In this document: piece after piece, positions 51,724-64,000 of the stretch
How the letters are laid out: each line of letters begins with the position of its first letter
Position numbering within the stretch: position 1 is the stretch's first letter
Program-made: the position numbers and the translations under genes
Source: Nitrospira sp.
GTDB taxonomy: Bacteria > Nitrospirota > Thermodesulfovibrionia > Thermodesulfovibrionales > SM23-35
Direction of reading: 5' to 3'
Length of the DNA: 64,000 bases
Assembly (NCBI GenBank): GCA_016873615.1
Contig: VGWX01000002.1
Coordinates: 5,101-69,100, forward strand
Notes under the pieces: model-generated
Seen by the model: only the letters and a program-made list of their open reading frames with translations
What the model was told of the DNA's origin: nothing
Databases searched by the model: none

Positions 51724-51901
51724 TTACCCTCCACAAAAAATTACTTTCCAGAAATTATGACTCCCGACATAAATCAGAAATAACTTTGTAGTGTACCTTT
51801 AAGTAAAGTATTTTGAAAAGTTTTTTTATGGTAATTTAATTCCTGGATTTTAAAAGAGTATAGATGACTAATTATTTTGCTGAATTTCTTTATACTTGCA
51901 C

Positions 51902-52186
51902 TTACTTTTTTACGGGCTTGTTCTTATCCATTAAAATCTGGCACGGAGATATGCTTCCTTTATAAACCTCTATATGGCAACTGCAACAATCTGTAATGTT
52001 GTTACCTGCCCTTTCTACCATTTTCTGATATTTTTGAGGATTCTTGATCTTTACTTTTTCGATATGCTCTTTCATTCCCTGCAACTGATCTGGAGGACTT
52101 ATGATTGGTTGAGCATCTGAGTTAACTCTTCCACAGAAAATAAAACTCAGACATATAATTGCAATAATCGTTACATGTTTCAACAT
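51902..52186 (-). CDS. small secreted monohaem c-type cytochrome
   Basis: 94 aa. Signal peptide MLKHVTIIAIICLSFIFC. Single CCSCH (CxxCH). Last gene of the cytochrome string. Confidence 0.65.
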   Translation of the reverse strand: MLKHVTIIAIICLSFIFCGRVNSDAQPIISPPDQLQGMKEHIEKVKIKNPQKYQKMVERAGNNITDCCSCHIEVYKGSISPCQILMDKNKPVKK

Positions 52187-52200
52187 ATGATCAATCTCCT

Positions 52201-53499
52201 TTAAAACAATGGTTTACCATAAGGAGTACCATCAATTGAACTGTTGCCGTGATAATGGCAATCCATGCAATTACGGTAATTTCCGCCTCCTGGATGGCAT
52301 TTTCCACACCCTAAACCTGAACCCGTAGGATGAGTATGCAGGTCCCCAACATTAAGATTGGTATGACATTTGCCGCAAAGCCATACCCATTCCTTCTTTG
52401 CCCTTCCATCAGGGCCTGTACCGTTGCCATTGTTTATGACAGTAACCACTCCGTTATTAACCTGTTTCCTTACAAGATAATTATTCGGTGAACCATGCGG
52501 TTCATGGCAATCTGTACAGGCTGTTATATATTGCCCGCACTTTGTCAGCCCATCGTAAGGCATGGCTAAAAGCGATGTTGCGCCCTGAGAACAATAGGTT
52601 GCCATATAGCCGCCATGATTTTCATTCGCCCAGTTAAAAGTTCGTAAATTTCTCAGCAGCTGATTGCTGTAAATAATGTTTGAGTTATTATGACAGTCGA
52701 TGCAAAATGTATTAAAATCAGCTAAATTGGACCCATCCTGAGTTGATGAACCGTCAGGTTCATATCCTGATGCAGCATTCGGCGCCTGGTAAATTCCGCC
52801 AAAAGAATTTGCATACATGTTCATCCTCTCTGCTGCAGCATCGCCCCAAAGGCCCCATGCATTATTATCCTTGCTGTGGAGACTTGGCCGTGAAACAGGG
52901 GAATATCCTCTTGTACCGGAGGTTTTCCTGCTGTTTGGCGCATTGGCAGGGTCTCCCTTTACCGCATGAGGATTATGACATGCAGCACAGGGATTGGAAT
53001 CATTTGTAAACCCCCATCTTCCATTGATAAATGTTTTTATATTGCCGAGGTTGTGGGAAGTCGCTGGTGAAATAAATGAGAATGCCTCCTTAATGTCATT
53101 CAGTGAATCAGCATAACCGCCTGCACGGTAGCTGTAGCTGCGGTTTATAAGACCTCCTGTTTGAAATGAGCTCAGGTCTGTATGACACTGAAAGCAAACA
53201 TTATCTGTCTGGTTTATATGATTGTTGTAGAACAGGGCATATTTGTCAGGGCCTCCAGTTGGGTTAGGCTCGGCTCCGCCGATGCTCGCATGCTGCTCAT
53301 GGCAGTGAACACAATTGCCAACTGAATAACCAAAAGAACTGATACTTGTACGGCTTACTCCATACGTGTTCTTTCCATGGGCAGAGTCAAGATAAGGCCC
53401 TGAATCGACAGTGTCAGGATACAGGAAGCATAGAGCTAAGAGCATAGAGCCAAGAGTAACTATCTGAAATTTTTTATTAAAACACTTATCTTTCTGCAT
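52201..53499 (-). CDS. secreted multihaem c-type cytochrome, 8 CxxCH
   Basis: 432 aa. CVHCH, CFQCH, CAACH, CIDCH, CTDCH, CGKCH, CGKCH, CMDCH. Low haem density with long Gly/Asn/Ser-rich loops. N-terminal CVHCHEQHASIGG resembles the neighbouring OmcS-like N-terminus. Confidence 0.85.
   Translation of the reverse strand: MQKDKCFNKKFQIVTLGSMLLALCFLYPDTVDSGPYLDSAHGKNTYGVSRTSISSFGYSVGNCVHCHEQHASIGGAEPNPTGGPDKYALFYNNHINQTDNVCFQCHTDLSSFQTGGLINRSYSYRAGGYADSLNDIKEAFSFISPATSHNLGNIKTFINGRWGFTNDSNPCAACHNPHAVKGDPANAPNSRKTSGTRGYSPVSRPSLHSKDNNAWGLWGDAAAERMNMYANSFGGIYQAPNAASGYEPDGSSTQDGSNLADFNTFCIDCHNNSNIIYSNQLLRNLRTFNWANENHGGYMATYCSQGATSLLAMPYDGLTKCGQYITACTDCHEPHGSPNNYLVRKQVNNGVVTVINNGNGTGPDGRAKKEWVWLCGKCHTNLNVGDLHTHPTGSGLGCGKCHPGGGNYRNCMDCHYHGNSSIDGTPYGKPLF
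53427..53461. repeat. 7-bp tandem repeat tract (AGCATAG AGCTAAG AGCATAG AGCCAAG AGTAACT)
   Basis: Five units in register, inside the signal-peptide coding region (GSMLLALCFLY) of the 8-haem cytochrome. Confidence 0.75.
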
Positions 53500-53543
53500 A
53501 AATCCTCTTATTTGTATTTATTCTCTCTTCAGTTTGCTCTTTA

Positions 53544-54746
53544 CTAATTCTTTGACGTATGACATACATTGCATCCATTTGGCTGACCATTTCCCGGCCA
53601 ACTCTTATAATCCCATCGCAACATCTTGAAATATGGCGATGCATGTGCCCGGTGACAGGAAAGGCACATAACCAGGTCTGTACCCAGCGTCACGGTACCA
53701 CTTGGTCCTGTCCAGCCACTCAAGGTAGGTCTTGCCACTGGAACTAATGGGTTATATGTACCTGTTGCACCGGAGGCACCGAAGGCGCTTGCATATTCAT
53801 CACTGTTGGGTATGATCAAATCCGAGGGATGTCTGATCCACGGGCTTCCGGTCGTTAGGTCATCCTCAATATGAAAATTTCCGTGACAACCGGTGCAGTA
53901 TGCTGTCATGGTATTTTCTCCGATCGCCGAGAACCCTCCAGCGGAAGTTTTTGTTCCGCTTGCACCTAAATATTCGTTATGATCGGTTGCGCTTGCACTA
54001 TATTGCCAGTCATCATCTTCTATGCCTGCCACACCAAAACCGGAACCACTTTTATGACCATCCAGAAAGCGGAACCATCCTTCAGCGGAGCTGTCTACAA
54101 CCGGACCTGTATCATCGAGGTGATGGTAACCTTTCGGACTGTCGCTTCCAACCATATGACATTTTGTACAGCCCTGACGGGAGGTATCGAACCCGAAGTA
54201 GGGTGGGCCCGTAGTTCCGTGAATATTCTCGTGGCATGAATTGGTCCCGCTGCATCCCCATGATTTTCCGGGCGCTTCATTTAATGTACTTTCAGGGTTT
54301 GAGGCAAAAATATTGTGTCCGGTGGTGTCCTCTGTCTGCACCCAGTAGAAATTTCCTGCCGACAGACCCATCACTGCATTATAGGAAGGCTGCTGGCTGT
54401 TGAAGACGATAGGCGCACCGGTTAACGGATCTTTCCAGGCACTCCCATCTGTCTTTGAATGGCAACCCAAACATGATCCGCGCAGGAGAGACTGTTTAGG
54501 TTTTGTATCACTTTCATCAGGAGCAAGGTACTGCATGTGGGCACCATTCTGACTGTTATGCATGGTATGGCAATTACTGCAATTACCGGTGACTTTGGCC
54601 TCCAGCTGCAATGCATAACTCCATAAGGCCATTACTGTAGAACAAATAAAAAATGCAGAATAAAATGAACGTAATCCTTTATTTTTTGCTTTTAAGCACA
54701 TTTTCCCCATGTCAGATGCCTGCGATCTATTCTCAATAAAAGACAT
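53544..54746 (-). CDS. OmcS-like secreted multihaem cytochrome (6 CxxCH + one CX5CH-like site)
   Basis: 400 aa. CSNCHTMHNSQNG, CLGCH, GHNI, CSGTNSCH, CTKCH, CTGCH, IRHPS, CLSCHRAHASPYFKMLRW, C-terminal CNVCHTSKN. Colinear with my recollection of Geobacter OmcS. The real start may be Met13 (54710). Confidence 0.8.
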   Translation of the reverse strand: MSFIENRSQASDMGKMCLKAKNKGLRSFYSAFFICSTVMALWSYALQLEAKVTGNCSNCHTMHNSQNGAHMQYLAPDESDTKPKQSLLRGSCLGCHSKTDGSAWKDPLTGAPIVFNSQQPSYNAVMGLSAGNFYWVQTEDTTGHNIFASNPESTLNEAPGKSWGCSGTNSCHENIHGTTGPPYFGFDTSRQGCTKCHMVGSDSPKGYHHLDDTGPVVDSSAEGWFRFLDGHKSGSGFGVAGIEDDDWQYSASATDHNEYLGASGTKTSAGGFSAIGENTMTAYCTGCHGNFHIEDDLTTGSPWIRHPSDLIIPNSDEYASAFGASGATGTYNPLVPVARPTLSGWTGPSGTVTLGTDLVMCLSCHRAHASPYFKMLRWDYKSWPGNGQPNGCNVCHTSKN

Positions 54747-54977
54747 TTCTATATATGAAGCAAAAGATATACCATGCAGTCCGATGAAGATAATTTAAGC
54801 ATTAGTTACATTATTTTACCAGATTCATCCCGCACGGTTCAATTAAGAATTAATCTTTTTGCTGATATAGCTTATTGTCAGGAGTTACAGGAAATTATTT
54901 CCGTACTGAAGAAGATGCCTTCTTAATTATCTATTGCTAATTTTACTGCCCCGCATTATCGTATCATTCTCAACATT

Positions 54978-56360
54978 CTATTTCTTATGGCACTGGATGC
55001 AGAGTTGTCTCTTTCTGTCGAAATAGAGCATAAAATCCGCTTTGGCAGAATGCATGCTGTGGCAGGTAATACAGGTAATTCCCTTGCCATTGCGCGGGTC
55101 TTTTACATTTTCTCCCAGGGGGTGAGTAATCTTGTGCTGCTGGGTATGACACTTTGCACATGTATGTATATCGTCTGCCCTGAAGTAGAGTACATTACGG
55201 GAATGGGGAGGGGCATGACAATCAAAGCATTTCCTGTCTTTCACAGGAACACATCTTATAGATTTCAATGCCTTCTCCATAAAAAGCGTTCTCTTTTCGG
55301 TAGTTTCGTGGCAGGAATAGCATAAAAGCGTTTCCTTGCCTGTAAGATTCTTCCTTTTTGAAGCGTGATGGCTGTGGCACATGGTGCATTCGCCCTTCTT
55401 ATTGTCGATGTGAACATCGTTTTCCTTTATTACAAAAGTGTCTTTCTTATGACAGTTGAGACATAATGCCTTTCCGGACAATTTCGTTGTTACCTTTTTA
55501 CCGGATTCGATAGGGTGATGGCATTCTTCACACTTCATTTCCAGAAATGCCTTATGTCCATAAGGTCCGAGACGGCCCCTTGTATTGGAAGAGTGCCCGC
55601 TGTGGCATGATGTGCAGTCTGATTTGTCTATTGCAGCCGTTATTGAAACCCCTGCAACCTTGCATCCGGCAAAATGACATTTACGGCATAAAGCATTGGG
55701 AGTTCCAAGGATCAGATCCTCTGACGAAGATGCATGCGGATCATGGCAGGATGAGCATTGCCCTTCCTTGAATGGATTGTGCAGAAAAGATTTTTTCAAT
55801 TCGTCTTTCAAATGTCCATGGCAACCCCAGCACAGGTCTTTTTGAGCTTTCACCAATAGTTTTTTATTGTCACTGCCATGGGCATGATGGCAATCCGTAC
55901 ATGTTCCCCTTCTCACCGCATTATGCACGAAATTCTTCTTTAACGCCTTATTTATCCCTTCGTGACAGGAGAGGCATAAGGAATTAATATCCTCCTTAAG
56001 AAGACCTTTCACACTCCCTGCATGAGAATTATGACATGAATTGCATTTCCCATCCTTAAAAGGAAAATGAACCGAGTTGCGTGTCAGGCTGTCTTTAAGC
56101 TTTATATGACACCTGTAGCAGAGATCAGGCGCTTTTTCTTTAAGATCACCCTGAGCATAGGCGAAAACAGCGAATAGCGTAGAGGTAAGAGCTAAGAGTA
56201 CGAAGCATATAGCATATTGCATATAGCGTAGAGCTGTTAGCGAAGAGCTTGGAGCAAAGAGCTTAGAGTCTTTAGCTCTTGGCTCTTTACCCTTGGCTCT
56301 TTGCTCCTGGCTCCTTGCTCTTGGCTTATTCATGACAGGCTCTGCAATCACCTTTTCCAA
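54978..56360 (-). CDS. periplasmic multihaem cytochrome, 16 CxxCH
   Basis: 16 CxxCH counted by hand in paired-CxxCH spacing. The start is ambiguous: 56360, 56333 (MNKPRARS, ATGAATAA overlap with the upstream stop) or 56222 (MQYAICFVLLALTSTLFAVFAYA, a clean signal peptide). Confidence 0.85.
   Translation of the reverse strand: MEKVIAEPVMNKPRARSQEQRAKGKEPRAKDSKLFAPSSSLTALRYMQYAICFVLLALTSTLFAVFAYAQGDLKEKAPDLCYRCHIKLKDSLTRNSVHFPFKDGKCNSCHNSHAGSVKGLLKEDINSLCLSCHEGINKALKKNFVHNAVRRGTCTDCHHAHGSDNKKLLVKAQKDLCWGCHGHLKDELKKSFLHNPFKEGQCSSCHDPHASSSEDLILGTPNALCRKCHFAGCKVAGVSITAAIDKSDCTSCHSGHSSNTRGRLGPYGHKAFLEMKCEECHHPIESGKKVTTKLSGKALCLNCHKKDTFVIKENDVHIDNKKGECTMCHSHHASKRKNLTGKETLLCYSCHETTEKRTLFMEKALKSIRCVPVKDRKCFDCHAPPHSRNVLYFRADDIHTCAKCHTQQHKITHPLGENVKDPRNGKGITCITCHSMHSAKADFMLYFDRKRQLCIQCHKK
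56176..56329. repeat. 22 consecutive 7-bp units in perfect register, with internal dyad symmetry
   Basis: AGCGTAG AGGTAAG AGCTAAG AGTACGA AGCATAT AGCATAT TGCATAT AGCGTAG AGCTGTT AGCGAAG AGCTTGG AGCAAAG AGCTTAG AGTCTTT AGCTCTT GGCTCTT TACCCTT GGCTCTT TGCTCCT GGCTCCT TGCTCTT GGCTTAT. 154 bp = 22 x 7. Confidence 0.85.
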
Positions 56361-58275
56361 AAGGATTGTGTTTGTTTTTTCTTAACATACCCTGTTTTTC
56401 AGTAACATGCGGCTCATGACATGAAAGACAATGTTTTATATTTGCTATAGGCTTCATGTGTGCCTTCAACAGCTTTTCCGAATCAGCTGTATGGCATTTA
56501 ACACACAAGTCCGGGTCCTTTGCATTAACCATTGATTTCGAAACCGAGAAATGTGACAGATGACAGCTGAGGCAGTCGCCTTTTTCCATATCGATATGCC
56601 CTTTTCTTGCAGTGGTCGTAACGATCCTTTCATGACATGACAGACAGAGTTCTTTCGGCCTGTTTAAAAGCAGGTTATCCATCCTGGTTCCATGGGCGCT
56701 ATGACAAGCCGAACATTTCCCTTCTTCGGCAGGCAGATGTTTAACAGCGCTTGCCGCCATATCCGTCTCCATTTTCCTGTGGCAATCAAAACATAGATCG
56801 GGCATCGCCTTAATCGCATGACCTGCATATTCACTTGCATGAGGGTCGTGACATTTCCCGCAGGTCTTTTCCTTAAATGGTTTGTGTACGGATCCTTCCT
56901 TCAGGTCGAGAAGCATATTCCCGTGACAGCTCATGCAGAGCTGGTCCGGCATATTGTTTAATAATTTCGGGTAAGAAGAGGCATGAGGTTTATGACAGGA
57001 GATGCATTTTCTGTTATTGACGGGATTATGGATATATGTCTTGAAGAAATCTTTTTCCTCTTTTTTATGACATGTGTAACACAAGCCGGAGACGGGGGTT
57101 TTCATCATATGCGGATTATTGCTGCCATGTGAGTCATGACAGCTGCCGCATTCCACCTTTGAAAAAGGCATATGCATGTTTTTTTCCTGCAGCTCCTTTT
57201 CTGTCTTTACGTGGCATGTAAAACAGAGCTTTTTCCCTGATGCCTTCAGATAGAATGGGTTGGGAGAAGCATGCGGGTTATGGCACGCTGTGCAGCCCTT
57301 GTCTTTAATCGGAGCATGCAAAGCGCTCACCTTTAACAGGTCTGTTTTTTTCTTGTGGCAGTTTATGCAGAGGTCATTTTTGTCCATGAGTGTAACCTTT
57401 GCATAATCAGTCGCGTGGGGGCTGTGGCAGCTCAGACATTTATCTTCATCTGCAGGACGGTGTCTGTGTGCCTCTCTGAATTCCTTTTCCTCCTTTTTAT
57501 GGCAGGTGTAGCAGAGTTTCCCGCCGGAGGCTACAACATCTAACGGTTTGGGGTCGTTCACTGCCTTGTGGCACGATGAGCACTGACCGGTTTTCAAAGG
57601 CGCATGGATCGACTCCCTGAGAAGTTTTTGATTTGTCGAACTGTGCGGGGTATGACATCCGCTGCATCTGCCTTTTTGAACAGGATAGTCTTTATGGGCC
57701 ATTCTGAATTTATCGGCAGTTACATTATGGCATGTCTGGCAGAGTTCAAGTTCAGGTTTCAACAGGTTGTTCTCATATTGCGAACCGTGAGCCGAATGGC
57801 ACGTGATACATCCGTCTGACATCGGTTTATGTCTTTTGGCGCGCGTGAAAGGCGTCTGATTATGACAGGTAAAGCACTGCTCGCTCCCTGTCTTTTTCTG
57901 AAGTGACTTGTTTTCCGATGCATGAGGATTATGACAGGGAAGGCATTTGCTCTGCTTCAGCGCAGTATGAACATGTGTTGTATTTTCGATATTTGCTGCC
58001 ATCTGTTTATGACATGTGAAACAGAGCCTTCTCTCTTCTCTCTCCTTAAGGGTCAATACGGCAATCTTTCCGTGACGGAGATGACATGCCTCACAGTCCC
58101 TCTTTGCGGCAGGGGAGTGGACATACTTCTTCTGGAATTCAGTCAGTTTTGTTTTATGACAATCCAGGCACGGCTTTGCCACAAATCCTTTACGCACTGT
58201 TTGTTCAGGCGCACAGGTATAAAAAAGAATACCGAAGATGAAGAGCGCCGGAAGAAGGTTAATTAATCTTTTCAT
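56326..58275 (-). CDS. periplasmic multihaem cytochrome, 26 CxxCH
   Basis: 649 aa. 26 CxxCH counted by hand in a regular VH.P....C..CH.PH / LC..CH doubled-CxxCH pattern. N-terminal hydrophobic segment ending FYTC. Confidence 0.9.
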   Translation of the reverse strand: MKRLINLLPALFIFGILFYTCAPEQTVRKGFVAKPCLDCHKTKLTEFQKKYVHSPAAKRDCEACHLRHGKIAVLTLKEREERRLCFTCHKQMAANIENTTHVHTALKQSKCLPCHNPHASENKSLQKKTGSEQCFTCHNQTPFTRAKRHKPMSDGCITCHSAHGSQYENNLLKPELELCQTCHNVTADKFRMAHKDYPVQKGRCSGCHTPHSSTNQKLLRESIHAPLKTGQCSSCHKAVNDPKPLDVVASGGKLCYTCHKKEEKEFREAHRHRPADEDKCLSCHSPHATDYAKVTLMDKNDLCINCHKKKTDLLKVSALHAPIKDKGCTACHNPHASPNPFYLKASGKKLCFTCHVKTEKELQEKNMHMPFSKVECGSCHDSHGSNNPHMMKTPVSGLCYTCHKKEEKDFFKTYIHNPVNNRKCISCHKPHASSYPKLLNNMPDQLCMSCHGNMLLDLKEGSVHKPFKEKTCGKCHDPHASEYAGHAIKAMPDLCFDCHRKMETDMAASAVKHLPAEEGKCSACHSAHGTRMDNLLLNRPKELCLSCHERIVTTTARKGHIDMEKGDCLSCHLSHFSVSKSMVNAKDPDLCVKCHTADSEKLLKAHMKPIANIKHCLSCHEPHVTEKQGMLRKNKHNPFGKGDCRACHE

Positions 58276-58309
58276 AATTTATTCCATGAGTTCCAGAATT
58301 AATGAACTA

Positions 58310-58415
58310 CCCCGCAGCAAGCTGCGAGGTATCTTATATGCAACATGTGCTTAGGTAAACATCCCCCCTCAAGAGGGAGGTTATATGTATATAACCCCGA
58401 AGCAGAGCTTCGAGG
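58310..58415. repeat. two related GC hairpins (REP-like) in the PPIase-cytochrome intercistronic gap
   Basis: CCCCGCAGCAAGCTGCGAGG (58310-58329) and CCCCGAAGCAGAGCTTCGAGG (58395-58415) share the frame CCCCG-xAGC-loop-GCTx-CGAGG. Confidence 0.6.
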
Positions 58416-58472
58416 AATTCGTTGATTAAATAATTATCAATAAGCATATGCTATATGTCAAGCAAAATTATT

Positions 58473-59876
58473 TTACTGGTTAAATTTTTTTTCAATAGCC
58501 TGTATCTCTTCTTCATTTATCTTTACCTCGGCGTCTTTCTTCAGTTTGTCTATATACCTGTTCAATTTGGTGTTCACCTGTTCATTTACGTATGCTTTAT
58601 GCACGTTATTCCTGACCCTGGCATATTCTTCGTTCACTTCCCCTGTTCTATCCTGTATCCTGAATATTTTATATAACGAATCAATCGTGATTACCGGACT
58701 TATTTCTCCTGTCTGCAGGTTATCTATTATTTCAAGAACTGGTTTCGGCAGTTCCGCCTTTGTAAACCATCCGGACTCTCCGCCCGTGGATGCAGCAGAA
58801 TCAGTTGATCTTCTTTTTGCAACCCAGGAAAAATCAGCGCCATTCTGAAGGCTTTTCAATATTTCCTGCGCGTCATCCATGGTTTTTACGGTAATCTGCT
58901 GGATTTTAAAACGGACCGGTCTGATAAAGTCTTTCTGATGTTCTGTATAGTAGTCCTGCAGATTCTTTTCTGTGACGACTATCTGGGGAATAATTACCCT
59001 TTTGATGTATGTATTTTTGAGAAGCTGGTTTTCATAACGGTCAACCATCTTCCGGAATCCTGGATTCATTCTGTAATTCCGCCTGAGGGCCTCGTGATCC
59101 ACTGCTTTACGGTCGATCCATTTCTCAAGTATATCTTCCTTTTTTGGTTTCTTGAGAGCAGGCGTGATCATGGCAAAAAAATCTCCCACCGTCAGGATCG
59201 AACTGTTTATCTCTGCCAACTTCCTTGGATCTTTAGACCATTTCTCAGTATCCTCTTTCTTCCCGTCCGGCTCTATCTCAGAAAGAAGTTCCTTGTCAAT
59301 CTTAACAGTAATTTTTTCACGAAGGGATTTCAGATATTCATCGCCCCGCTCTTTCTCCCTTTGTTTCCTGATCTCCTTTGCTATTCCGGCCTTAACACTA
59401 TCAAATTCTTTATTCTCATAATTCTTTGCATGGTAGTCTTTGATTTCTTTTTCTGTTACTGAAACCTTCTGCACAATCTCCTCGTCATGCAGCCTTACAA
59501 CAGATTCCCTCAGGACATATGCAGCAACAGCCTGGTGAAGCTCCGGATACGTGTCCATTCCGGCATTGCGCGCTTCGTTGATGATTAATCTGTCATCTAT
59601 CTGCTTCTGAACATGCTGAGTTAAATTCAGGGCGCCTGCTGTCGAGAGGTCCTCTCTGCGGTGGGCAATATTCAAAGTATATTTAAGATCTTCCTCTGTT
59701 ATCGGCTCACCGTCAACAACCGCCAGAACCGGCTCTTTTTGCGAAAGCGATGCACAACCACCAAAAAAGAGCAAAGAGCTTAGAGCAAAGAGCACAAAGC
59801 GTAAAAAATAAATTTCAATGCCCGTTGTTCGTTGTTTTCTGCTCTTCGCTCTTGGCTCTTGGCTCTTTATCTCCAT
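58473..59876 (-). CDS. SurA-like lipoprotein peptidyl-prolyl isomerase (parvulin domain)
   Basis: 467 aa. Lipobox-like LLFFGGCAS. SurA-N-like helical region. PpiC domain (FKIQQITVKTMDDAQEILKSLQNGADFSWVAKRRSTDSAS..GGESGWF). Confidence 0.8.
   Translation of the reverse strand: MEIKSQEPRAKSRKQRTTGIEIYFLRFVLFALSSLLFFGGCASLSQKEPVLAVVDGEPITEEDLKYTLNIAHRREDLSTAGALNLTQHVQKQIDDRLIINEARNAGMDTYPELHQAVAAYVLRESVVRLHDEEIVQKVSVTEKEIKDYHAKNYENKEFDSVKAGIAKEIRKQREKERGDEYLKSLREKITVKIDKELLSEIEPDGKKEDTEKWSKDPRKLAEINSSILTVGDFFAMITPALKKPKKEDILEKWIDRKAVDHEALRRNYRMNPGFRKMVDRYENQLLKNTYIKRVIIPQIVVTEKNLQDYYTEHQKDFIRPVRFKIQQITVKTMDDAQEILKSLQNGADFSWVAKRRSTDSAASTGGESGWFTKAELPKPVLEIIDNLQTGEISPVITIDSLYKIFRIQDRTGEVNEEYARVRNNVHKAYVNEQVNTKLNRYIDKLKKDAEVKINEEEIQAIEKKFNQ
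59770..59874. repeat. 15 seven-bp units in register, two arms of opposite polarity
   Basis: AGCAAAG AGCTTAG AGCAAAG AGCACAA AGCGTAA ... TGCTCTT CGCTCTT GGCTCTT GGCTCTT. 105 bp = 15 x 7. Encodes MEIKSQEPRAKSRKQ...FVLFALSSLLFF of the PPIase. Confidence 0.8.
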
Positions 59877-60889
59877 GTTGTTTTACCCATTTCCTTCACC
59901 AGATTTGATACTGCCTTGTAAGCCACAGTCTCTGCAGCATTCATCCTTCCCATATCGAACACAAATATATTGTCATCGCCTTTAGTGTCATTGCTGTCAG
60001 ACCACAATAATCTGTCTTTATGAGCATCTATTAATCTTGCGTTTACAGAAGCTTCAGGCGGCATAGCGCCTTCCCCTTCAGAGAATTTTTCCACAGTTCC
60101 AACGATGATTCCATCTACACCCGAGGCGCCTGATATAGCTGCTGTTTTTTTCAGGTCTAATTCCCCTTTCTCTTTTACCCTTAAATCAACTACCAGCCGT
60201 CTTACTTCACCGTATTCTACAGGAATGAATCTTTTGTTTTTAAATAGCTCCACTATGAACATGTATGTCACTGCTATCCCGGCGTCTTTCACCCTGCTAT
60301 TGTTCTGAAAAGGCATTACAGCAATTCTATATGTCGACTCCATTTCTTTATTCGGCAGACTAAGGGTAAGAGAACTGTGCAATTTGCCTATGACCTTAAC
60401 TGCAAGCGCATCAATGATTGTTATAGTTCCAAGTCCCAGGATTCCGGTAAAATCATCTCCTGTTGCAGATGCATGATCCGCCCATATAATATCCCCGGTT
60501 AAAGAATCTACAAGACGCGCTGAAAAACCTATCCGTGGATTTTCTCCGCTATAGAAGGAATTGATTGATCCTATAAATACCGTCTTAACATTCAACTCTT
60601 CTCCCAATTTTAGCGCAAGGTCTTTTGTTATATATCCGGTGCATCTGATTCTTTCCTTAAGCAGAAATTTCTCAAGAGTATCTTCATCGAGCACATCAAG
60701 CCCTATTGACTCTAACCCGTCCCTCACCAAAGGCATGACAAATGCCACGGCATTTTTATCTTCACTAAGGTTTTCAAATGGAAACAGAGCTATTCTTCCG
60801 TAAAAATCCTTCTGGGCAGTATGCCCTGAATTAACAGCAAAGAACATAGAGCATAGAGCTATTAGCAAAGGGTATAGAACAAAAAACAT
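59867..60889 (-). CDS. secreted protein with two tandem GNA1162/LpoB/CsgG-N-like domains
   Basis: Start at MFFVLYPLLIALCSMFFAV (60889); the ORF stays open to 61090. Two repeats each starting RIA[LV].PF.N.S and ending ..ARL[VI]D...........W.D. Confidence 0.65.
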   Translation of the reverse strand: MFFVLYPLLIALCSMFFAVNSGHTAQKDFYGRIALFPFENLSEDKNAVAFVMPLVRDGLESIGLDVLDEDTLEKFLLKERIRCTGYITKDLALKLGEELNVKTVFIGSINSFYSGENPRIGFSARLVDSLTGDIIWADHASATGDDFTGILGLGTITIIDALAVKVIGKLHSSLTLSLPNKEMESTYRIAVMPFQNNSRVKDAGIAVTYMFIVELFKNKRFIPVEYGEVRRLVVDLRVKEKGELDLKKTAAISGASGVDGIIVGTVEKFSEGEGAMPPEASVNARLIDAHKDRLLWSDSNDTKGDDNIFVFDMGRMNAAETVAYKAVSNLVKEMGKTTWR

Positions 60890-60919
60890 AGAGTTTTTAA
60901 CTCTTCGCTCTTTGCACTT
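60843..60919. repeat. 11 seven-bp units in register
   Basis: AACATAG AGCATAG AGCTATT AGCAAAG GGTATAG AACAAAA AACATAG AGTTTTT AACTCTT CGCTCTT TGCACTT. Overlaps the signal-peptide codons and the 60889 start. Confidence 0.7.
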
Positions 60920-60952
60920 GCTAATAAGAGCATAATTAAAACCACATGGTAT

Positions 60953-61016
60953 GTCATTCCCGCTTGTCGGGAATCCTTCTGAAAAGCAAGAAAGATTGCG
61001 GACAAGCCGCAATGAC
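60953..61016. repeat. MITE-like palindromic element, GTCATTCC family (copy 2, 64 bp, inside an open reading frame)
   Basis: GTCATTCCCGCTTGTCGGGAATC (60953-60975) and GATTGCGGACAAGCCGCAATGAC (60994-61016). Same termini as 25076-25161. Confidence 0.7.
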
Positions 61017-61057
61017 AATATCGTGAGGAATGTGTACTTGCTTATGATCTCCTTATT

Positions 61058-61092
61058 AGCTTTTAGCTCTTTGTATTTTGCTCTTTGCATTT
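61058..61092. repeat. 5 seven-bp units (AGCTTTT AGCTCTT TGTATTT TGCTCTT TGCATTT)
   Basis: Read directly. Contains the 61090 ATG and encodes MQRAKYKELKA on the minus strand. Confidence 0.65.
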
Positions 61093-61670
61093 TATTTGTA
61101 AAGAGTCTGAATCGCCTCTTTGACCACCTTCAAAGCAGCTTCACTCATAGTGTCTGACCTTGCACCAAAATGCTTTGCCCAAAAATCAACGCCCCCCCTT
61201 GTCTTTGTTACCGACCATATGATACTTCCGGAGCTTGTATCAGCCATCATCAGCGTGATAGAAACTTCCGGAGAGGAGATATTTCCTTCTCTGACTTCCC
61301 CGAATTTGTTGACAGCGCCGAATATGACAGCCTGTACCTTAAGGGCTTTGCCGATAGCTTTTATCTGCTCTGCATTCGGAGACTGGCCTGTTTTTAATTT
61401 CAGGGTTTCGATAGCAGATATCACATCCCCGGGACATGTTACATCAACAAGTCCTGATGCCAGAAACTCGCTGATAACAATATGCCGTACAGCATCACCG
61501 GCAAATCTTTCGTTTGTCAGATTATCCAGAGGCAATACAGCCACCCTTTTTATAAAACTGAAGTCTGTATCCTGATTTATATAATGTGAAGGAGCGGCCT
61601 TCCCTCCACAGCCCGTTAAGAAAAATAATGCAAGCATGCAAATCGCAAAAAATGTTTTCAGCATTCTCAT
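61092..61670 (-). CDS. GNA1162/DUF799-like lipoprotein
   Basis: 192 aa. Lipobox FFLTGCGG. RVAVLPLDNLTNERFAGDAV...VQAVIFGAVNKFG...ITLMMADTSSGSIIWS pattern. Confidence 0.7.
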   Translation of the reverse strand: MRMLKTFFAICMLALFFLTGCGGKAAPSHYINQDTDFSFIKRVAVLPLDNLTNERFAGDAVRHIVISEFLASGLVDVTCPGDVISAIETLKLKTGQSPNAEQIKAIGKALKVQAVIFGAVNKFGEVREGNISSPEVSITLMMADTSSGSIIWSVTKTRGGVDFWAKHFGARSDTMSEAALKVVKEAIQTLYK

Positions 61671-61724
61671 CTTCTCCTGTCTCTCAATAACTTTTTGTTA
61701 AGCAATTTTCACACCAGTAAACCT

Positions 61725-61746
61725 CCCCGCCGCAGAGACGGCGGGG
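61725..61746. repeat. GC-only hairpin CCCCGCCG-CAGAGA-CGGCGGGG
   Basis: 8-bp all-GC stem in the 101-bp gap between the two lipoprotein paralogues. No convincing U-tract on the gene strand. Confidence 0.6.
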
Positions 61747-61771
61747 TATTTAAAAATATTAATAAACAATA

Positions 61772-62371
61772 TCAAAATAATGAACTTATAGACTCCCTTA
61801 CTACCTTCCCGGCAGCTTCACTCAAAGAAGGTCCTTCTGAACCAAAATGTCTGGTCCAGAAGTCAGGGCCGCCGGTTGTATGACGCACAGACCATATAAT
61901 ATTTCCTGATGGTGTGTCGATCAACCGCAAATGAATAGTCACCTCAGGATATGTAACAGAAATCCCCCTGCTTATTCCGAAGGATTCTACCGAACCCATC
62001 ATTACTGTTTTTACATCAAGCGCTTTGCCGATATCCTGTATTTCAGACATTTTCAGTGAACCGACAGATTTGATCTTCAACTCCTTCAAAAGTCTCGTAA
62101 CTTCTCCGGGCTCTGTTACCTCTATCCCTCTAATCAGAAGTTCCGTAATCACAAGCTTCCTGATCTTTTCATGAGCATGTTCATCTGCTGTAAAGTTTTC
62201 AAAAGGCATTGCGGCGATTTTCTTTATTGTGCCGGTGTCGGCTTTCAGCTTTGCAGCAACTCTTGGGCTGCATCCATATGCAAAAACAAACAAAAAGCAT
62301 AGAGCATAGAGCACAGAGCATAGAGCTAATCCACCCACCCCACTCTTAGCTATCCTTACCATAATCTGCAT
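61772..62371 (-). CDS. GNA1162/DUF799-like lipoprotein (paralogue)
   Basis: 199 aa. LFVFAYGCS lipobox-like. KIAAMPFENFTADEHAHEKI...VKTVMMGSVESFG...IHLRLIDTPSGNIIWS. Colinear with 61092-61670. Confidence 0.7.
   Translation of the reverse strand: MQIMVRIAKSGVGGLALCSVLYALCFLFVFAYGCSPRVAAKLKADTGTIKKIAAMPFENFTADEHAHEKIRKLVITELLIRGIEVTEPGEVTRLLKELKIKSVGSLKMSEIQDIGKALDVKTVMMGSVESFGISRGISVTYPEVTIHLRLIDTPSGNIIWSVRHTTGGPDFWTRHFGSEGPSLSEAAGKVVRESISSLF
62296..62330. repeat. 7-bp tandem repeat tract (AGCATAG AGCATAG AGCACAG AGCATAG AGCTAAT)
   Basis: The most regular tract. Encodes LALCSVLYALCFL of the lipoprotein signal peptide. Confidence 0.8.
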
Positions 62372-64000
62372 GTCAGATATCCGCCAAACACATATGTCTC
62401 TTTCTTCGTATCATTTGTCTCGCGTGTATAGTTATAGGAGAACTGAAAATCAAGAAATCTTGTAATATGCCATATCAAATAGCCGCTAAAAGAATCGGTT
62501 AACGTTGTATCCGGCCTTGTATCTTTAAATGTATGCTGGTAATTAAAATTCATACGGACAGCAGGAAGAAACAACCAGTCTATCAAAATCCCTTCTGAGC
62601 TGGTTGTTTCATTATCCGTATCTGATACGGAAAAACTACCTGACAGGCTGAAAAACCTGCCCGGACGATATGTAAGCAACATCAATGCATCGTTCGTGCT
62701 CGAAGAACTGCTGCCCGAAGCGCTGCTCAATCCATACGTTAGGTTGGCCGAGACTTTTGAAGAGAGACGCGCATCAAGCGTTCCCCTGACATACCGTGTT
62801 GAGGAGCTGGTGTCTTCCGAAGTTGCTGAGTCCGCTGACCGACTGTTGGTCGCATATGTCCTGGAATCAGTATATCCTATATCAGCAATCATATTCACAT
62901 CCCTGTAAAGTTTTGCCCCTACTGTCAGAAAATACAAACTGTTCATCGAGTGTTTTTCATTAAAATCAAAGGAATAAGTTCTGACAAAAGAGAGGTTCGT
63001 ATCGAGCGTTGGAAGAGGAGATGAATTAAAGGCTAATGAGTATGTATCTGATCTGATATCTGTCTTTTCTTTGTTGTCAAATGCCTGATTCCTCTCAAAC
63101 CTTGCTGTTGTTGCCAGATATCTCTGGATAAGCCACGTTGAAGATGCCCCGAAGTTTCTGGTTATATTGCTTTGAAGCATATTTCCGTTTTTCTGTATGG
63201 AATTCGTAAAGATGTTTGCAAAAGCGCCGCCGATTGAATTGATAACTGAAGCAGGGTTCTGGTCAGCCCTGTTCAGGAAATAATTAAGCCTGAAGGAAAG
63301 GACGGCTGAAGGCTTTATATTGGCATTAAAGCTGACGCCCTGGGTAAAGAATGTCGAAGTATCAGTGATTTTGCCTGACTGAGGTATAATATCAGCGCCA
63401 TAAGCCTCCATCTCCGTGACAAATACATCATTTACAGACGATACCTCCATATTGATCGCCCTGAAAAAAAGACTGTTCTGGGGGGCTGCAAATTTGATTT
63501 CGTATCGGTAAACATTATTTACAATATCAAAAACATGTGCGTTTACAGTCAGGATATTTATCTCTGTCCATGTATTGGGCAGGTTATATTCACTCTTATA
63601 GACTTTCCAGTTTGACCTCTGTATTAGCTCTGTATCCGATGTGATATCCTTATTGACATAAATGTACAGTGTATCAACGGGTTTCGCTGACGAAAACAGC
63701 TGGATGCCTGTATTATGGAACTTCTTCCCGTTCTGACCTATATTAATTGTACCTGAAGTTGTTGTCGCCGGAATATTGTAAATATTATCGCTCAGTGTTA
63801 TCGTTGCAGTTAATATATCCGCATCAGGTTCGAGCTGGGTACCCGATCCGTATATTCCCATTGAAGGCATCCGTTTGAATGAAACGCTTCCTGTCTGAGC
63901 GGCAAACTGCTCGATCTTGTTGCGGAAGTAATTTCCCTGATAACCTGCTGATGCATTGATCCTGCCGTCCCAAAAAGCTTTGCTATACCCGATGTTATAC
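62356..64000 (-). CDS. large outer-membrane beta-barrel-like protein, 5' end beyond the right edge
   Basis: The frame stays open from 63870 to 64000 (…YNIGYSKAFWDGRINASAGYQGNYFRNK…). Ser/Thr/Asn/Tyr-rich alternating strands. C-terminus GGYLTCRLW (terminal aromatic). Overlaps the next gene by 16 nt. Confidence 0.6.
   Translation of the reverse strand, partial: YNIGYSKAFWDGRINASAGYQGNYFRNKIEQFAAQTGSVSFKRMPSMGIYGSGTQLEPDADILTATITLSDNIYNIPATTTSGTINIGQNGKKFHNTGIQLFSSAKPVDTLYIYVNKDITSDTELIQRSNWKVYKSEYNLPNTWTEINILTVNAHVFDIVNNVYRYEIKFAAPQNSLFFRAINMEVSSVNDVFVTEMEAYGADIIPQSGKITDTSTFFTQGVSFNANIKPSAVLSFRLNYFLNRADQNPASVINSIGGAFANIFTNSIQKNGNMLQSNITRNFGASSTWLIQRYLATTARFERNQAFDNKEKTDIRSDTYSLAFNSSPLPTLDTNLSFVRTYSFDFNEKHSMNSLYFLTVGAKLYRDVNMIADIGYTDSRTYATNSRSADSATSEDTSSSTRYVRGTLDARLSSKVSANLTYGLSSASGSSSSSTNDALMLLTYRPGRFFSLSGSFSVSDTDNETTSSEGILIDWLFLPAVRMNFNYQHTFKDTRPDTTLTDSFSGYLIWHITRFLDFQFSYNYTRETNDTKKETYVFGGYLTCRLW

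What the first reader, a model, noticed from the sequence alone, without database searches (positions are those of the whole stretch)
53427..62330. Heptanucleotide (AGCNNNN / NNNNGCT) tandem repeats encode the signal peptides of at least five genes in the cytochrome cluster
Six tracts consist of 7-bp units in strict register, with consensus near AGCATAG/AGCAAAG on the plus strand: 53427-53461, 56176-56329, 59770-59874, 60843-60919, 61058-61092 and 62296-62330.

On the coding (minus) strand, the CTATGCT/CTTTGCT polarity translates to hydrophobic cores: LALCSVLYALCFL, GSMLLALCFLY, LIALCSMFF and FALSSLLFF. The opposite polarity (AAGAGCC etc.) translates to basic n-regions: QEPRAKSRKQ, RAKGKEPRAKD and QRAKYKELKA.

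I found these tracts only in this cluster. Since 7 is not a multiple of 3, gain or loss of one unit shifts the frame. This is the logic of Neisseria opa CTCTT repeats, which also lie in signal-peptide coding regions. The tracts also resemble cyanobacterial STRR heptamers. They could therefore mediate phase variation, recombination between cluster genes, or RNA structure.
Basis: seen in the sequence. Interest (0 to 1): 0.65.

Follow-up and report, generated by a model that had tools for sequence, protein, structure and literature searches.

The report
Heptamer repeats that encode signal peptides
Seven-base DNA repeats really do spell out the export signals of five secreted proteins in a Nitrospirota cytochrome operon, but they look like stable, tolerated repeat DNA (sometimes folding into strong mRNA hairpins) rather than an on/off switch.

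Summary
Six period-7 tracts lie at the stated coordinates (core AGAGC plus two variable bases on the plus strand, GCTCTNN on the coding strand). Chance predicts none, and 12 of the 13 pattern matches in the window fall within 53.4-62.3 kb.

All tracts lie in the 5' leaders of five genes for secreted proteins in a Thermodesulfovibrionales multihaem-cytochrome/lipoprotein operon. The pyrimidine-rich polarity encodes the hydrophobic core of the signal peptide. In three leaders an inverted copy upstream encodes a basic n-region, and the two arms are predicted to form hairpins (-24 to -53 kcal/mol).

Phase variation by unit slippage is not supported:
- Eight near-identical contigs from five samples show no change in unit number.
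- Related strains differ only by three units (21 nt, which keeps the frame).
- Units are imperfect.
- In a related population the leader polymorphism lies in a poly-C run, not in the heptamers.

Orthologues show the leaders are hypervariable mosaics of at least seven small-repeat types, while mature proteins stay at least 90% identical.

Most likely these are heptameric simple-sequence repeats, sometimes in inverted pairs, that persist in a permissive, cleaved leader. Hairpin effects on translational coupling are possible. I rate this a new variant of a known kind.

The parts
53427..53461 (-). Tract 1. T-arm only: (CTNNGCT)x5 on the coding strand, encoding the h-region LGSMLLALCFL of the 432-aa multihaem cytochrome.
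   Evidence: No significant RNA structure (z 0.0). Identical in L001 and L002.
52201..53499 (-). Multihaem cytochrome c, 432 aa. Leader MQKDKCFNKKFQIVTLGSMLLALCFLY. It has its own AAGAGGA ribosome-binding site, 44 nt after the upstream stop.
56176..56266 (-). Tract 2 T-arm, about 13 degenerate units. Encodes KLFAPSSSLTALRYMQYAICFVLLALTST, the end of the n-region plus the h-region.
56270..56329 (-). Tract 2 A-arm, (AAGAGCN)-type units. Encodes KPRARSQEQRAKGKEPRAK. It starts 1 codon after the ATG at 56333, which overlaps the upstream stop (CATGAATAA).
   Evidence: Pairs with the T-arm: -53 kcal/mol, z -4.4.
54978..56333 (-). Multihaem cytochrome c, 451 aa from the ATG (460 aa from an upstream TTG). 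Identical to NCBI 'Nitrospira sp.' FJ240_00930. The mature part starts at about AYA|QGDLKEKAPDLCYRCH.
59766..59804 (-). Tract 3 T-arm. Encodes LRFVLFALSSLLF just before the lipobox FGGC.
59838..59870 (-). Tract 3 A-arm. Encodes IKSQEPRAKSR. It begins 2 codons after the ATG at 59876, which overlaps the upstream stop (ATGGAGATAA).
   Evidence: Hairpin with the T-arm: -43 kcal/mol, z -6.2. L124 has 3 extra units here with the ORF kept.
58473..59876 (-). PpiC/SurA-like peptidyl-prolyl isomerase lipoprotein, 467 aa.
60836..60894 (-). Tract 4 T-arm. Encodes SMFFVLYPLLIALCSMFFA, the h-region of the 343/407-aa GNA1162/CsgG-like protein.
60899..60919 (-). Tract 4 short A-arm (KCKERRV). Forms a small hairpin with the start of the T-arm.
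   Evidence: -24.4 kcal/mol, z -3.3.
60920..61057 (-). REP/MITE-like insert with two inverted hairpin units (GTCATTGCGGCTTGTCCGCAATC and GATTCCCGACAAGCGGGAATGAC). It lies between tracts 5 and 4. The ORF stays open through it.
   Evidence: Fold -37.6 kcal/mol, z -3.8. The window's leader sequence here, including this insert, has no counterpart in L124, which has a different, shorter leader. Three contigs break inside it at 60991, so it is multi-copy.
61058..61092 (-). Tract 5. A-type units encoding MQRAKYKELKA. Its ATG at 61090 lies 1 nt after the upstream stop.
59867..61090 (-). GNA1162/CsgG-like protein. 407 aa from the ATG at 61090, or 343 aa from the ATG at 60898. Which start is used is undecided.
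62296..62330 (-). Tract 6. T-arm only, (CTATGCT)x4.4, the most regular tract (91% matches). Encodes LALCSVLYALCFL before the lipobox AYGC.
   Evidence: Same unit number in L124 with 2 substitutions. Identical in L135-L139. Orthologue P0319 lacks exactly 7 aa, which equals 3 units.
61772..62371 (-). CsgG/LpoB-like lipoprotein, 199 aa. Its ATG overlaps the upstream stop (ATGCAGATTATGGTAA).

Best explanation
**What it is.** The tracts are heptanucleotide simple-sequence repeats, with unit GCTCT plus two variable bases on the coding strand. They sit inside the translated, cleavable leaders (signal peptides) of five secreted-protein genes. These genes belong to a multihaem-cytochrome / PpiC / LpoB-CsgG-like lipoprotein operon that is conserved in Thermodesulfovibrionales (Nitrospirota).

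**How it codes.**
- Because 7 = 1 mod 3, three units (21 nt) are read in all three frames. The pyrimidine-rich polarity therefore always yields the same hydrophobic 7-residue cycle (L-[FY]-A-L-C-S-[ML]), which serves as the h-region.
- In three leaders an inverted copy of the repeat lies just upstream. It is read as a Lys/Arg/Glu/Gln-rich cycle (K-S-[KQ]-E-[QP]-R-A), which serves as an extended n-region.
- The two arms can pair in the mRNA into a stem of about 30 bp. The stem starts within a few nucleotides of a start codon that overlaps the upstream gene's stop codon.

**Why it is there.** I read the tracts as DNA-level repeats: products of slippage or duplication, and small inverted-repeat modules. 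They persist because a signal peptide is cleaved off and needs only a 'basic then hydrophobic' composition, which this repeat and its complement supply. They are one of at least seven kinds of small repeat that colonise these same leaders across the order. They are old and stable, not a slippage switch.

**Shown:** the repeats, their coding frame, their inverted arrangement, the predicted hairpins, their stability among near-identical contigs, 3-unit-only length changes, and leader hypervariability in orthologues.

**Inferred:** that persistence is due to tolerance rather than a selected function; that the upstream ATGs are the starts actually used; and that the hairpins, if they matter, act on translational coupling or mRNA stability.
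For: **Coding status**
- In each of the five leaders only the frame continuous with the mature protein is free of stops (0 versus 1-7 stops).
- Four of the five starts overlap or abut the upstream stop.
- In 96 of 119 orthologue clusters of the 451-aa cytochrome, the ORF is open from an MNK-like start. DNA checks show this is the ATG overlapping the upstream stop (CATGAATAA) in L126, L127, L133 and L148. Leader lengths range from 17 to 113 aa.

**DNA-driven sequence**
- Periodicity is 7, 14 or 28 nt, not 21 nt.
- The h-regions contain unusual Cys, Tyr, Ser and Met.
- Orthologous PpiC leaders in L125 and L126 use a different heptamer, (ACTGTTT)n, at the same place.

**Stability**
- There is no unit-number difference in L001-L003 and L135-L139, from five samples.
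- Changes occur only in 3-unit steps: +21 nt in the L124 A-arm and -7 aa in P0319.
- Nine contigs of a related population differ only in a poly-C run.

**Permissive, colonised leaders**
- Within clusters whose mature parts are at least 90% identical, leaders switch among module types A-G.
- There is an empty/filled pair with a 216-nt in-frame MITE-like insertion that has terminal inverted repeats.
- The window's tract 5 / REP-like leader sequence has no counterpart in L124, which has a different leader.
- The same genes are affected in L126, at 71% aa identity.

**Hairpins**
- Window: -53, -43 and -24 kcal/mol.
- L126 and L124: -37.6, -52.5 and -44 kcal/mol.
- No shuffle folds as well.

**General phenomenon**
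- GCTCTNN arrays occur in many phyla and are mostly intergenic.
- They recur in the lipoprotein signal peptide of one orthologous gene in three Alphaproteobacteria MAGs.
- Heptamers are reported as the most abundant long SSR class in bacteria (PMC4679880 and PMC4692102).
Against: - **Confinement to one operon.** 16 of 17 period-7 tracts in 121 kb lie in this operon's leaders. At least six other secreted proteins in the window lack them. Recurrence at the same genes in a relative at 71% identity is more than simple tolerance predicts and hints at a selected role or a local mechanism.
- **Strength of the hairpins.** Their size and their position at cistron junctions look functional.
- **Unverified calls.** Start codons and signal-peptide cleavage sites were judged by eye (AXA|Q, lipobox), not with a predictor or with data. 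In the 199-aa lipoprotein family only 25 of 115 leaders are in frame with the overlapping ATG. In L140 and L141 the A-arm region lies outside the main ORF, so A-arms are not always translated.
- **Limited resolution.** Assemblies give consensus sequences, so minority length variants would be invisible.
- **Limited sampling.** Only about 64 kb of the source genome was seen, and the 121 kb scanned is biased towards this cluster.
Confidence: 0.55

Rival explanations
1. Selected RNA element. The inverted heptamer arms are kept because the mRNA hairpin at the cistron junction does something useful. It could enforce translational coupling, since the start codon lies at or near the stem base and only a ribosome terminating on the upstream gene would open it. 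It could set differential mRNA stability or processing within the operon. Or it could offer an array of pyrimidine-rich heptamers to an RNA-binding protein such as a Csp-type protein.
For: Strong hairpins that no shuffle matches occur in the window and in L124 and L126, although the arm sequences differ. In L126 cyt440 the AUG/stop overlap is inside the stem. In window tract 3 the stem starts about 7 nt after the AUG. The same genes carry two-arm leaders in a relative at 71% identity. The tract 3 stem is followed by UUUUUU. PMC4679880 proposes translational regulation for TAACTGA heptamer arrays next to start codons and notes that CspB binds heptamer repeats.
Against: Tracts 1 and 6 have no second arm and no significant structure. 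Close relatives replace two-arm leaders with unrelated modules that fold weakly: L125 z -1.5 and L126 PpiC z -0.8. L124 has unequal arms, 8 versus 5 units. There is no Rfam match. Any inverted repeat folds, so the structure by itself is not evidence of selection.
Confidence: 0.2
2. Contingency locus. Gain or loss of single 7-nt units by slipped-strand mispairing switches each gene on or off, as with the Neisseria opa CTCTT repeats in signal-peptide coding regions.
For: The unit length is not a multiple of 3 and the tracts lie inside ORFs near the 5' end. Length changes do occur in tracts over evolutionary time. Frame-shifted leader alleles exist in a related population. About 10% of orthologue entries have truncated N-termini.
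Against: No unit-number variation was seen in eight contigs from five samples. The only changes seen are 3 units. All tracts are in frame in the window, L124 and L126. Units are heterogeneous and each arm has only 3-5 good units. The frame-shifted alleles map to a C6/C8 run, with the heptamers identical. Three 'truncated' entries that were checked turned out to be gene-caller start choices, or leaders with their own nearer ATG.
Confidence: 0.08
3. Mobile or exchangeable leader cassettes. The heptamer modules and the other module types move between leaders by recombination, gene conversion or transposition, so the whole 5' leader is swapped as a unit. The repeats are the substrate or footprint of that exchange.
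For: Leaders of mature proteins at least 90% identical belong to discrete, recurring module types shared between different genes of the cluster and between genomes. L125 and L126 share a PpiC leader type that differs from the window and L124. A clean 216-nt insertion with inverted termini exists. Flanks at 94% identity border completely unrelated leader DNA.
Against: No transposase, recombinase or target-site duplication is linked to the heptamer modules. The modules are low-complexity and variable, so common descent of copies cannot be shown. In-situ slippage plus inverted duplication explains type A equally well.
Confidence: 0.15
4. Assembly or sequencing artefact.
For: Several short-read contigs end next to the repeats: L001 at 59743 and L135, L136 and L139 at 60991.
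Against: The same tracts were recovered base for base in independent assemblies from JGI and Logan samples. Homologous tracts occur in related species.
Confidence: 0.01

Closest known systems
Heptameric simple-sequence repeats of bacteria. Examples: cyanobacterial STRR (Calothrix, Nostoc), TAACTGA arrays of Beggiatoaceae and Cyanobacteria (PMC4679880), and GGGAATC arrays of Xanthomonas (PMC4692102).
   Same: Seven-nt units in short tandem arrays at several loci. They are often next to gene starts. Some are arranged as inverted repeats able to form stem-loops (Xanthomonas). Between strains they show indels in 7-nt increments (Cyanothece). Function is unknown or suggested to be post-transcriptional.
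   Different: The known arrays are overwhelmingly intergenic, or lie just upstream of start codons. Here the arrays are inside ORFs and supply the signal peptide itself. The unit sequence differs (GCTCTNN). The units are heterogeneous. In the sequence seen, they are confined to one operon.
Neisseria opa CTCTT pentamer repeats (phase-variable signal-peptide coding repeats; from my own knowledge).
   Same: A tandem repeat whose unit is not a multiple of 3, lying in the hydrophobic part of a signal-peptide coding region. The repeat is pyrimidine-rich, so every frame is hydrophobic.
   Different: The opa tracts are perfect, longer, and demonstrably variable, with many out-of-frame alleles in any genome. 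Here the tracts are imperfect, invariant among sampled contigs, always in frame, and change only in 3-unit steps.
Rickettsia palindromic elements (RPE) and other intragenic MITEs (review PMC10969869).
   Same: Small palindromic repeats found inside ORFs as in-frame additions that the protein tolerates. Relatives show filled and empty sites.
   Different: RPEs are 100-150-bp families of conserved sequence that insert into mature parts of many unrelated genes. Here the modules are low-complexity heptamer arrays confined to cleaved leaders of one operon. Transposition has not been shown.
[quoted passage not shown]
   Same: The coding repeat DNA has dyad symmetry and is associated with membrane-targeted proteins. 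Copy number and sequence are variable.
   Different: PARCELs are 25-residue protein-domain repeats in the mature protein, recognisable with an HMM. Here the unit is 7 nt, there is no domain, and the product is removed by signal peptidase.
REP/BIME-type intercistronic hairpins that stabilise upstream mRNA segments (from my own knowledge).
   Same: Stable stem-loops at gene junctions inside operons, present in some strains and absent in others.
   Different: REPs are extragenic. Here the stem is made of translated sequence.

Membership tests
Heptameric SSR / STRR-type tandem repeats | Head-to-tail arrays of a 7-nt unit, far more than chance predicts. | tested here: met
Heptameric SSR / STRR-type tandem repeats | Dispersed over many loci of the genome, predominantly intergenic. 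| tested here: not met
   In the 64-kb window all good tracts lie in 9 kb and inside ORFs. The rest of the genome was not available. In other phyla the same unit is mostly intergenic.
Heptameric SSR / STRR-type tandem repeats | Unit sequence equal to a described family: STRR1-3 CCCCAGT, TTGGTCA, CAACAGT (recalled from memory), TAACTGA, or GGGAATC. | tested here: not met
   The unit is GCTCTNN. The (ACTGTTT)n of L125 and L126 is 6/7 identical to the complement of STRR3, as I recall that sequence.
Phase-variable contingency locus (opa type) | Repeat unit not divisible by 3, inside the ORF. | tested here: met
Phase-variable contingency locus (opa type) | Long, perfect or near-perfect tract. | tested here: not met
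   73-95% matches, with 3-5 good units per arm and units differing at two positions. Only tract 6 approaches this (4.4 units, 91%).
Phase-variable contingency locus (opa type) | Unit-number polymorphism, including out-of-frame alleles, among strains or populations. | tested here: not met
   Eight contigs from five samples are identical. Relatives differ by 0 or 3 units. The heptamers are invariant where a poly-C run varies. This holds at consensus level only.
Phase-variable contingency locus (opa type) | Observed ON/OFF switching of the product. | not testable with these tools
   Needs cultures, or read-level or single-cell data.
In-frame palindromic insertion elements (RPE/MITE-like) | Dyad symmetry. 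| tested here: met
   Tracts 2, 3 and 4. Not tracts 1, 5 and 6.
In-frame palindromic insertion elements (RPE/MITE-like) | Present in an ORF without breaking it, with empty sites in relatives. | tested here: met
   P0318 has an A-arm that is absent from the window and from P0317. The tract 5 / REP-like leader sequence of the window has no counterpart in L124. For a non-heptamer module.
In-frame palindromic insertion elements (RPE/MITE-like) | Multi-copy family of conserved sequence with defined ends or a target-site duplication. | tested here: inconclusive
   The heptamer modules vary in unit number and sequence, and no ends or duplications could be defined. The REP-like insert at 60920-61057 is multi-copy, because contigs break in it.
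Sec-type signal peptide / lipoprotein signal peptide | Basic n-region, hydrophobic h-region, then an AXA site or a lipobox Cys. | tested here: met
   Read by eye from the translations: AYA|QG, FGGC, AYGC, VNSG|H and PDTVDSG. No predictor was available. The mature parts are c-type cytochromes and lipoprotein families.
Known structured RNA families (Rfam) | Match to a curated covariance model. | tested here: not met
   No match at gathering threshold in the whole window.

The most novel reading that the evidence does not exclude
The [AAGAGCN]n[NGCTCTT]n palindrome may be a self-contained, orientation-independent and frame-independent 'portable signal peptide'. It reads as basic-then-hydrophobic on either strand and in any frame. 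It may also act as a frame adaptor: one unit gained or lost shifts the frame by one base without changing the encoded peptide, so it could restore the frame after other repeats insert. If so, heptamer tracts would be the device that lets these operon leaders be rebuilt continually while the ORFs stay open. They could also be a route by which proteins acquire export signals de novo.
Probability: 0.12. Interest if true: 0.8.

Novelty: new variant of a known kind. Interest (0 to 1): 0.6.

Why it matters
Heptameric repeats are reported as the most abundant long SSR class in bacteria, yet they have almost no assigned biology. This is a clear case where they are translated and make up a functional protein segment.

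- It shows that signal peptides can be written by low-complexity DNA and its complement. This is relevant to how export signals arise and turn over, and to gene calling and start-codon annotation in metagenomes.
- It exposes an order-wide hypervariable 5' leader in a conserved Thermodesulfovibrionales multihaem-cytochrome operon that resembles extracellular-electron-transfer clusters. That is a natural system for studying translational coupling, mRNA structure at cistron junctions, and tolerance of selfish DNA inside ORFs.
- It warns against inferring phase variation from repeat arithmetic alone.

Tried and rejected
**Leads that gave nothing**
- The Rfam scan of the window found no match.
It did not return the source genome, so it could not give a genome-wide distribution.
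- A consensus type-A leader peptide searched against the protein collection returned only tiny spurious ORFs over repeats in other bacteria.
- An exhaustive phmmer search with the window's 55-aa leader returned two low-complexity hits. One shows a long [A][T] palindrome at the 3' end of a sensor-kinase ORF.
- The promoter/terminator consensus scan was not enriched and not informative about the tracts.
- A perfect-hairpin scan of the window did not single out the cluster.
- A look-up of the 192-aa lipoprotein failed with the longest ORF and worked with the ATG two codons downstream.

**Ideas rejected**
- An assembly artefact, because independent assemblies agree.
- That 'truncated' orthologue entries are frameshift alleles caused by the heptamers. 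DNA checks showed gene-caller start choices or poly-C changes instead.
- That the LxALCSML motif is a selected peptide signal. The periodicity is 7 nt rather than 21 nt, and other heptamers substitute at the same site.

Full report
**1. The observation**

In 7-base register the plus strand reads AGC-NN-AG, an invariant AGAGC core plus two variable bases. The coding (minus) strand therefore reads GCTCTNN.

- The pattern AGAGCNNAGAGCNNAGAGC with at most one mismatch occurs 13 times, against 0.00 expected from dinucleotide-preserving shuffles. Twelve of these lie in 53.4-62.3 kb. The thirteenth is a 2.6-unit tract at 7450 inside an unrelated ORF.
- Only period 7 gives dense self-matches; periods 5, 6, 8 and 9 give none.

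**2. Anatomy**

The region is a co-directional (minus-strand) gene cluster:
- an outer-membrane-type protein (62356-63870);
- three LpoB/CsgG/GNA1162-like proteins, at least two of them lipoproteins;
- a PpiC/SurA-like lipoprotein;
- four multihaem cytochromes;
- a 94-aa protein.

The 451-aa cytochrome is identical to a protein of a Nitrospirota MAG annotated 'Nitrospira sp.' FJ240_00930. Its relatives are annotated Thermodesulfovibrionales or Nitrospirota.

Five genes carry tracts, always in the first 40 or so codons. In four of them the first ATG overlaps or abuts the stop of the upstream gene:
- CATGAATAA at 56333;
- ATGGAGATAA at 59876;
- TAAAATG at 61090;
- ATGCAGATTATGGTAA at 62371.

The pyrimidine-rich polarity (the 'T-arm') always covers the hydrophobic core that precedes an AXA-type site or a lipobox Cys.

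The purine-rich polarity (the 'A-arm') always lies upstream of the T-arm on the coding strand. In tracts 2, 3 and 4 the A-arm is the reverse complement of the T-arm.

Folded as RNA, the two-arm tracts give -53 kcal/mol (z -4.4), -43 (z -6.2) and -24 (z -3.3). No shuffle folds as well. T-arm-only tracts 1 and 6 have no significant structure.

**3. Is the leader translated?**

- In each of the five leaders the frame continuous with the mature protein has no stop codon. The other two frames have 1-7 stops each.
- In 96 of 119 orthologue clusters of the 451-aa cytochrome, the ORF runs from an MNK-like start into the mature protein, although the leader varies from 17 to 113 residues. DNA checks show that this start is the ATG overlapping the upstream stop in L126, L127, L133 and L148. 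This is far above the one-third expected for a non-coding spacer.
- The rule is not absolute. In the 199-aa lipoprotein family only 25 of 115 leaders use the overlapping ATG. In L140 and L141 the A-arm region forms a short separate ORF and the gene has its own nearer ATG.

I conclude that the T-arms are always translated and that the A-arms usually are. In the window they probably are, but this is not proven.

**4. Why heptamers can do this**

This follows directly from the sequence. Seven is 1 mod 3, so three units are read in all three frames and the tract encodes the same 7-residue cycle whatever the phase:
- CTATGCT gives L-C-S-M-L-Y-A;
- CTTTGCT gives L-C-S-L-L-F-A;
- AAGAGCA gives K-S-K-E-Q-R-A;
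- AAGAGCC gives K-S-Q-E-P-R-A.

The repeat supplies a hydrophobic stretch and its complement supplies a basic, hydrophilic one. That is the n-region and h-region of a signal peptide. The unusual Cys, Tyr, Ser and Met in these cores, and the periodicity of 7/14/28 nt rather than 21 nt, show that the DNA repeat dictates the peptide and not the reverse.

**5. Tests of phase variation**

*Near-identical contigs.*
- Look-ups with neighbouring genes that carry no tract returned eight contigs from five samples, at 99.2-100% identity.
- Tracts 1 and 2 (L001-L003) and tracts 4, 5 and 6 (L135-L139) are identical in unit number.

*Strains at about 94% nucleotide identity.*
- L124 has the same number of units in tract 6, with two substitutions.
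- L124 has exactly three extra units (21 nt) in the A-arm of tract 3, with the ORF kept.
- Orthologue P0319 lacks exactly seven residues, which equals three units, of tract 6.

*Could the approach detect frameshift alleles?*
- Yes. In a related population the abundant alleles P0230, P0232 and P0233 differ by a C6 versus C8 run inside another kind of palindromic insert.
- The heptamer tracts of that leader are identical in all nine contigs.
- Three 'truncated' database entries that were checked turned out to be gene-caller start choices or genes with a nearer ATG.

*Tract quality.* Together with the heterogeneity of the units (73-95% matches), this makes opa-like switching by unit slippage unlikely. 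Minority variants within populations cannot be excluded from consensus assemblies.

**6. The wider picture**

The syntenic cluster in L126 (GCA_040960625.1, about 71% aa identity) has repeat-built leaders on the same genes: the outer-membrane protein, two LpoB/CsgG-like lipoproteins, PpiC and the 440-aa cytochrome. It has plain leaders on two of the same genes as the window: the 193-aa LpoB-like protein and the 648-aa cytochrome.

Its two type-A leaders fold at -37.6 and -52.5 kcal/mol (z -5.8). In the cytochrome leader the AUG/stop overlap lies inside the stem. The PpiC leaders of L125 and L126 use a different heptamer, (ACTGTTT)n, for the h-region.

Within protein clusters whose mature parts are at least 90% identical, the leader switches among discrete module types:
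- A: QAKSKEQRAKS plus LYALCSML, the window's type;
- B: KVQSSKFKVQSS plus LTLTLT;
- C and D: FTQFTQF..VNSVNS and SLxSFLSF..NPRNS;
- E: PLHPPLDKGG, a C-run/G-run palindrome;
- F: TVTMPVSVTLNGNVKEPNDVTV;
- G: HCEGRSPEAIS..AQND, REP-like.

The same types appear in the leaders of the 199-aa lipoprotein family. The T-arm motif is present in 45 of 119 and 36 of 115 orthologue clusters of the two families. The A-arm motif is present in 15 and 20.

One pair of alleles differs by a clean 216-nt in-frame insertion with inverted termini, directly after MNKRNF. In the window itself, the leader sequence from tract 5 through the REP-like block (60920-61057) has no counterpart in L124, which has a different, shorter leader there. 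A hairpin block at 58301-58425 is missing from both L124 and L125.

A stringent period-7 scan of 121 kb of Thermodesulfovibrionales DNA found 17 tracts. Sixteen lie in the first 40 or so codons of cluster genes. This sample is biased towards the cluster. Even so, the remaining 52 kb of the window contains at least six other secreted proteins with ordinary leaders.

**7. Outside the lineage**

Most are perfect arrays outside long ORFs.

Three termite-gut Alphaproteobacteria MAGs (L083, L084, L123) carry different GCTCTNN tracts in the signal peptide of the same orthologous lipoprotein. A Bacteroidales locus (L057) shows another case. Both [A][T] and [T][A] inverted arrangements occur in intergenic examples. 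Only [A][T] was seen in leaders.

The literature reports that heptamers are the most abundant long SSR class in many bacteria, possibly because of polymerase slippage. Described families (STRR, TAACTGA, GGGAATC) are intergenic, sometimes next to start codons or inverted, and vary in 7-nt increments between strains (PMC4679880 and PMC4692102). In-frame palindromic insertions are known from Rickettsia RPEs (PMC10969869). Palindromic coding repeats are known from PARCELs (PMC2996958). Two literature searches aimed at repeats or palindromic elements in signal-peptide coding regions turned up no description of heptamer arrays that encode signal peptides.

**8. Interpretation**

The best-supported reading (about 0.55) is that these are heptameric SSRs, sometimes as inverted pairs, residing in a permissive coding segment. 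A cleaved leader needs only a basic-then-hydrophobic composition, and this repeat and its complement provide it in any frame. Purifying selection then removes only frame-breaking variants, which explains why only 3-unit changes are seen.

The leaders of this operon are a sink for many small repeats. The heptamer module is the kind that happens to be present in this strain.

The main rival (about 0.2) is that the hairpins are selected, for example to enforce translational coupling at overlapping stop/start junctions or to shape mRNA stability. The conserved position, with unconserved sequence, on the same genes favours some local cause. The arm-less tracts and the weakly folding replacement leaders argue against a general requirement for the structure.

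Cassette-like exchange of leaders (about 0.15) and true phase variation (about 0.08) remain possible.

**9. Novelty and value**

The repeat class is known. New here are:
- its use as the coding material of signal peptides;
- the palindromic n-region/h-region arrangement;
- the order-wide hypervariability of these leaders next to highly conserved mature proteins.

I rate it a new variant of a known kind, with interest 0.6. The most novel reading not excluded is that the palindrome is an orientation- and frame-independent portable signal peptide and frame adaptor (probability about 0.12).

Noticed in passing
window 60920-61057: A REP/MITE-like block with two inverted hairpin units (GTCATTGCGGCTTGTCCGCAATC and GATTCCCGACAAGCGGGAATGAC) lies inside the open leader of the 407-aa ORF. 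The window's leader sequence here has no counterpart in L124, which has a different leader. Three independent contigs end inside the block at 60991, so it is multi-copy.
   Followed up: partly
window 58301-58425: A 124-nt block of small hairpins (CCCCGCAGCAAGCTGCGAGG, CCCCCCTCAAGAGGGAGG, CCCCGAAGCAGAGCTTCGAGG) lies in the 5' UTR of the 649-aa cytochrome, downstream of the best promoter-like site (58461-58433). It is missing from L124 and L125, so it is an insertion or deletion between strains. A similar hairpin lies at about 61720-61750.
   Followed up: partly
L127-L129, L144-L149 (leader of P0230/P0232/P0233): In a related population the only leader polymorphism is a poly-C run: C6 (in frame, 489-aa product) versus C8 (frameshift). 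It sits inside a PPL..KGG-type C-run/G-run palindromic insert. L127 has a second 1-nt difference. Both alleles occur on many contigs. This could be homopolymer phase variation or two fixed strains.
   Followed up: partly
L142 versus L143 (P0129 versus P0132): A 216-nt in-frame insertion with inverted termini (..ACAAACGGCAGGGC / GCCCTGCCGTTT..) lies directly after codons MNKRNF of the signal peptide. The flanks are otherwise identical. NCBI and JGI call different starts on the filled allele.
   Followed up: partly
L137, corresponding to window 60779-60803: A 25-nt deletion in the mature part of the GNA1162/CsgG-like gene in sample 3300020221. It would shift the frame. It may be a real variant or a misassembly.
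   Followed up: no
L001, corresponding to window 53616-53619: A 2-nt deletion plus 2 substitutions in the 400-aa cytochrome gene of sample 3300020221. The gene is called as 367 aa there.
   Followed up: no
L083, L084, L123 (termite-gut Alphaproteobacteria/Rickettsiales MAGs): The same orthologous lipoprotein (..AC|SKTDPVLPG..) has its signal-peptide core encoded by different GCTCTNN heptamer arrays in three species. This is an independent recurrence of the phenomenon.
   Followed up: partly
L127-L132: A ParE-type toxin pair and small ORFs are inserted between two cytochrome genes of the orthologous cluster. In L130 and L131 the cytochrome follows a different upstream gene (a retropepsin-like protease) and its leader is out of frame.
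   Followed up: no
P0438: A sensor-kinase ORF from an unknown organism runs into a very long [A-arm][T-arm] heptamer palindrome (..QRAKSKGQRAKGKERRAKGKGHYALRSTLYALCPMLYALCS..) at its 3' end. This shows that such palindromes also occur downstream of genes.
   Followed up: no
window 7439-7466: The only other GCTCTTT-type tract in the window (2.6 units). It lies at codon 117 or so of an unrelated 653-aa ORF, read in the purine-rich sense.
   Followed up: no
window 51900-64000, L126 1-14200: The gene order is conserved across Thermodesulfovibrionales: outer-membrane protein, three LpoB/CsgG/GNA1162-like proteins, PpiC, four multihaem cytochromes and a small Cys-rich protein. It looks like a porin-cytochrome-type conduit. 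Its function was not examined.
   Followed up: no
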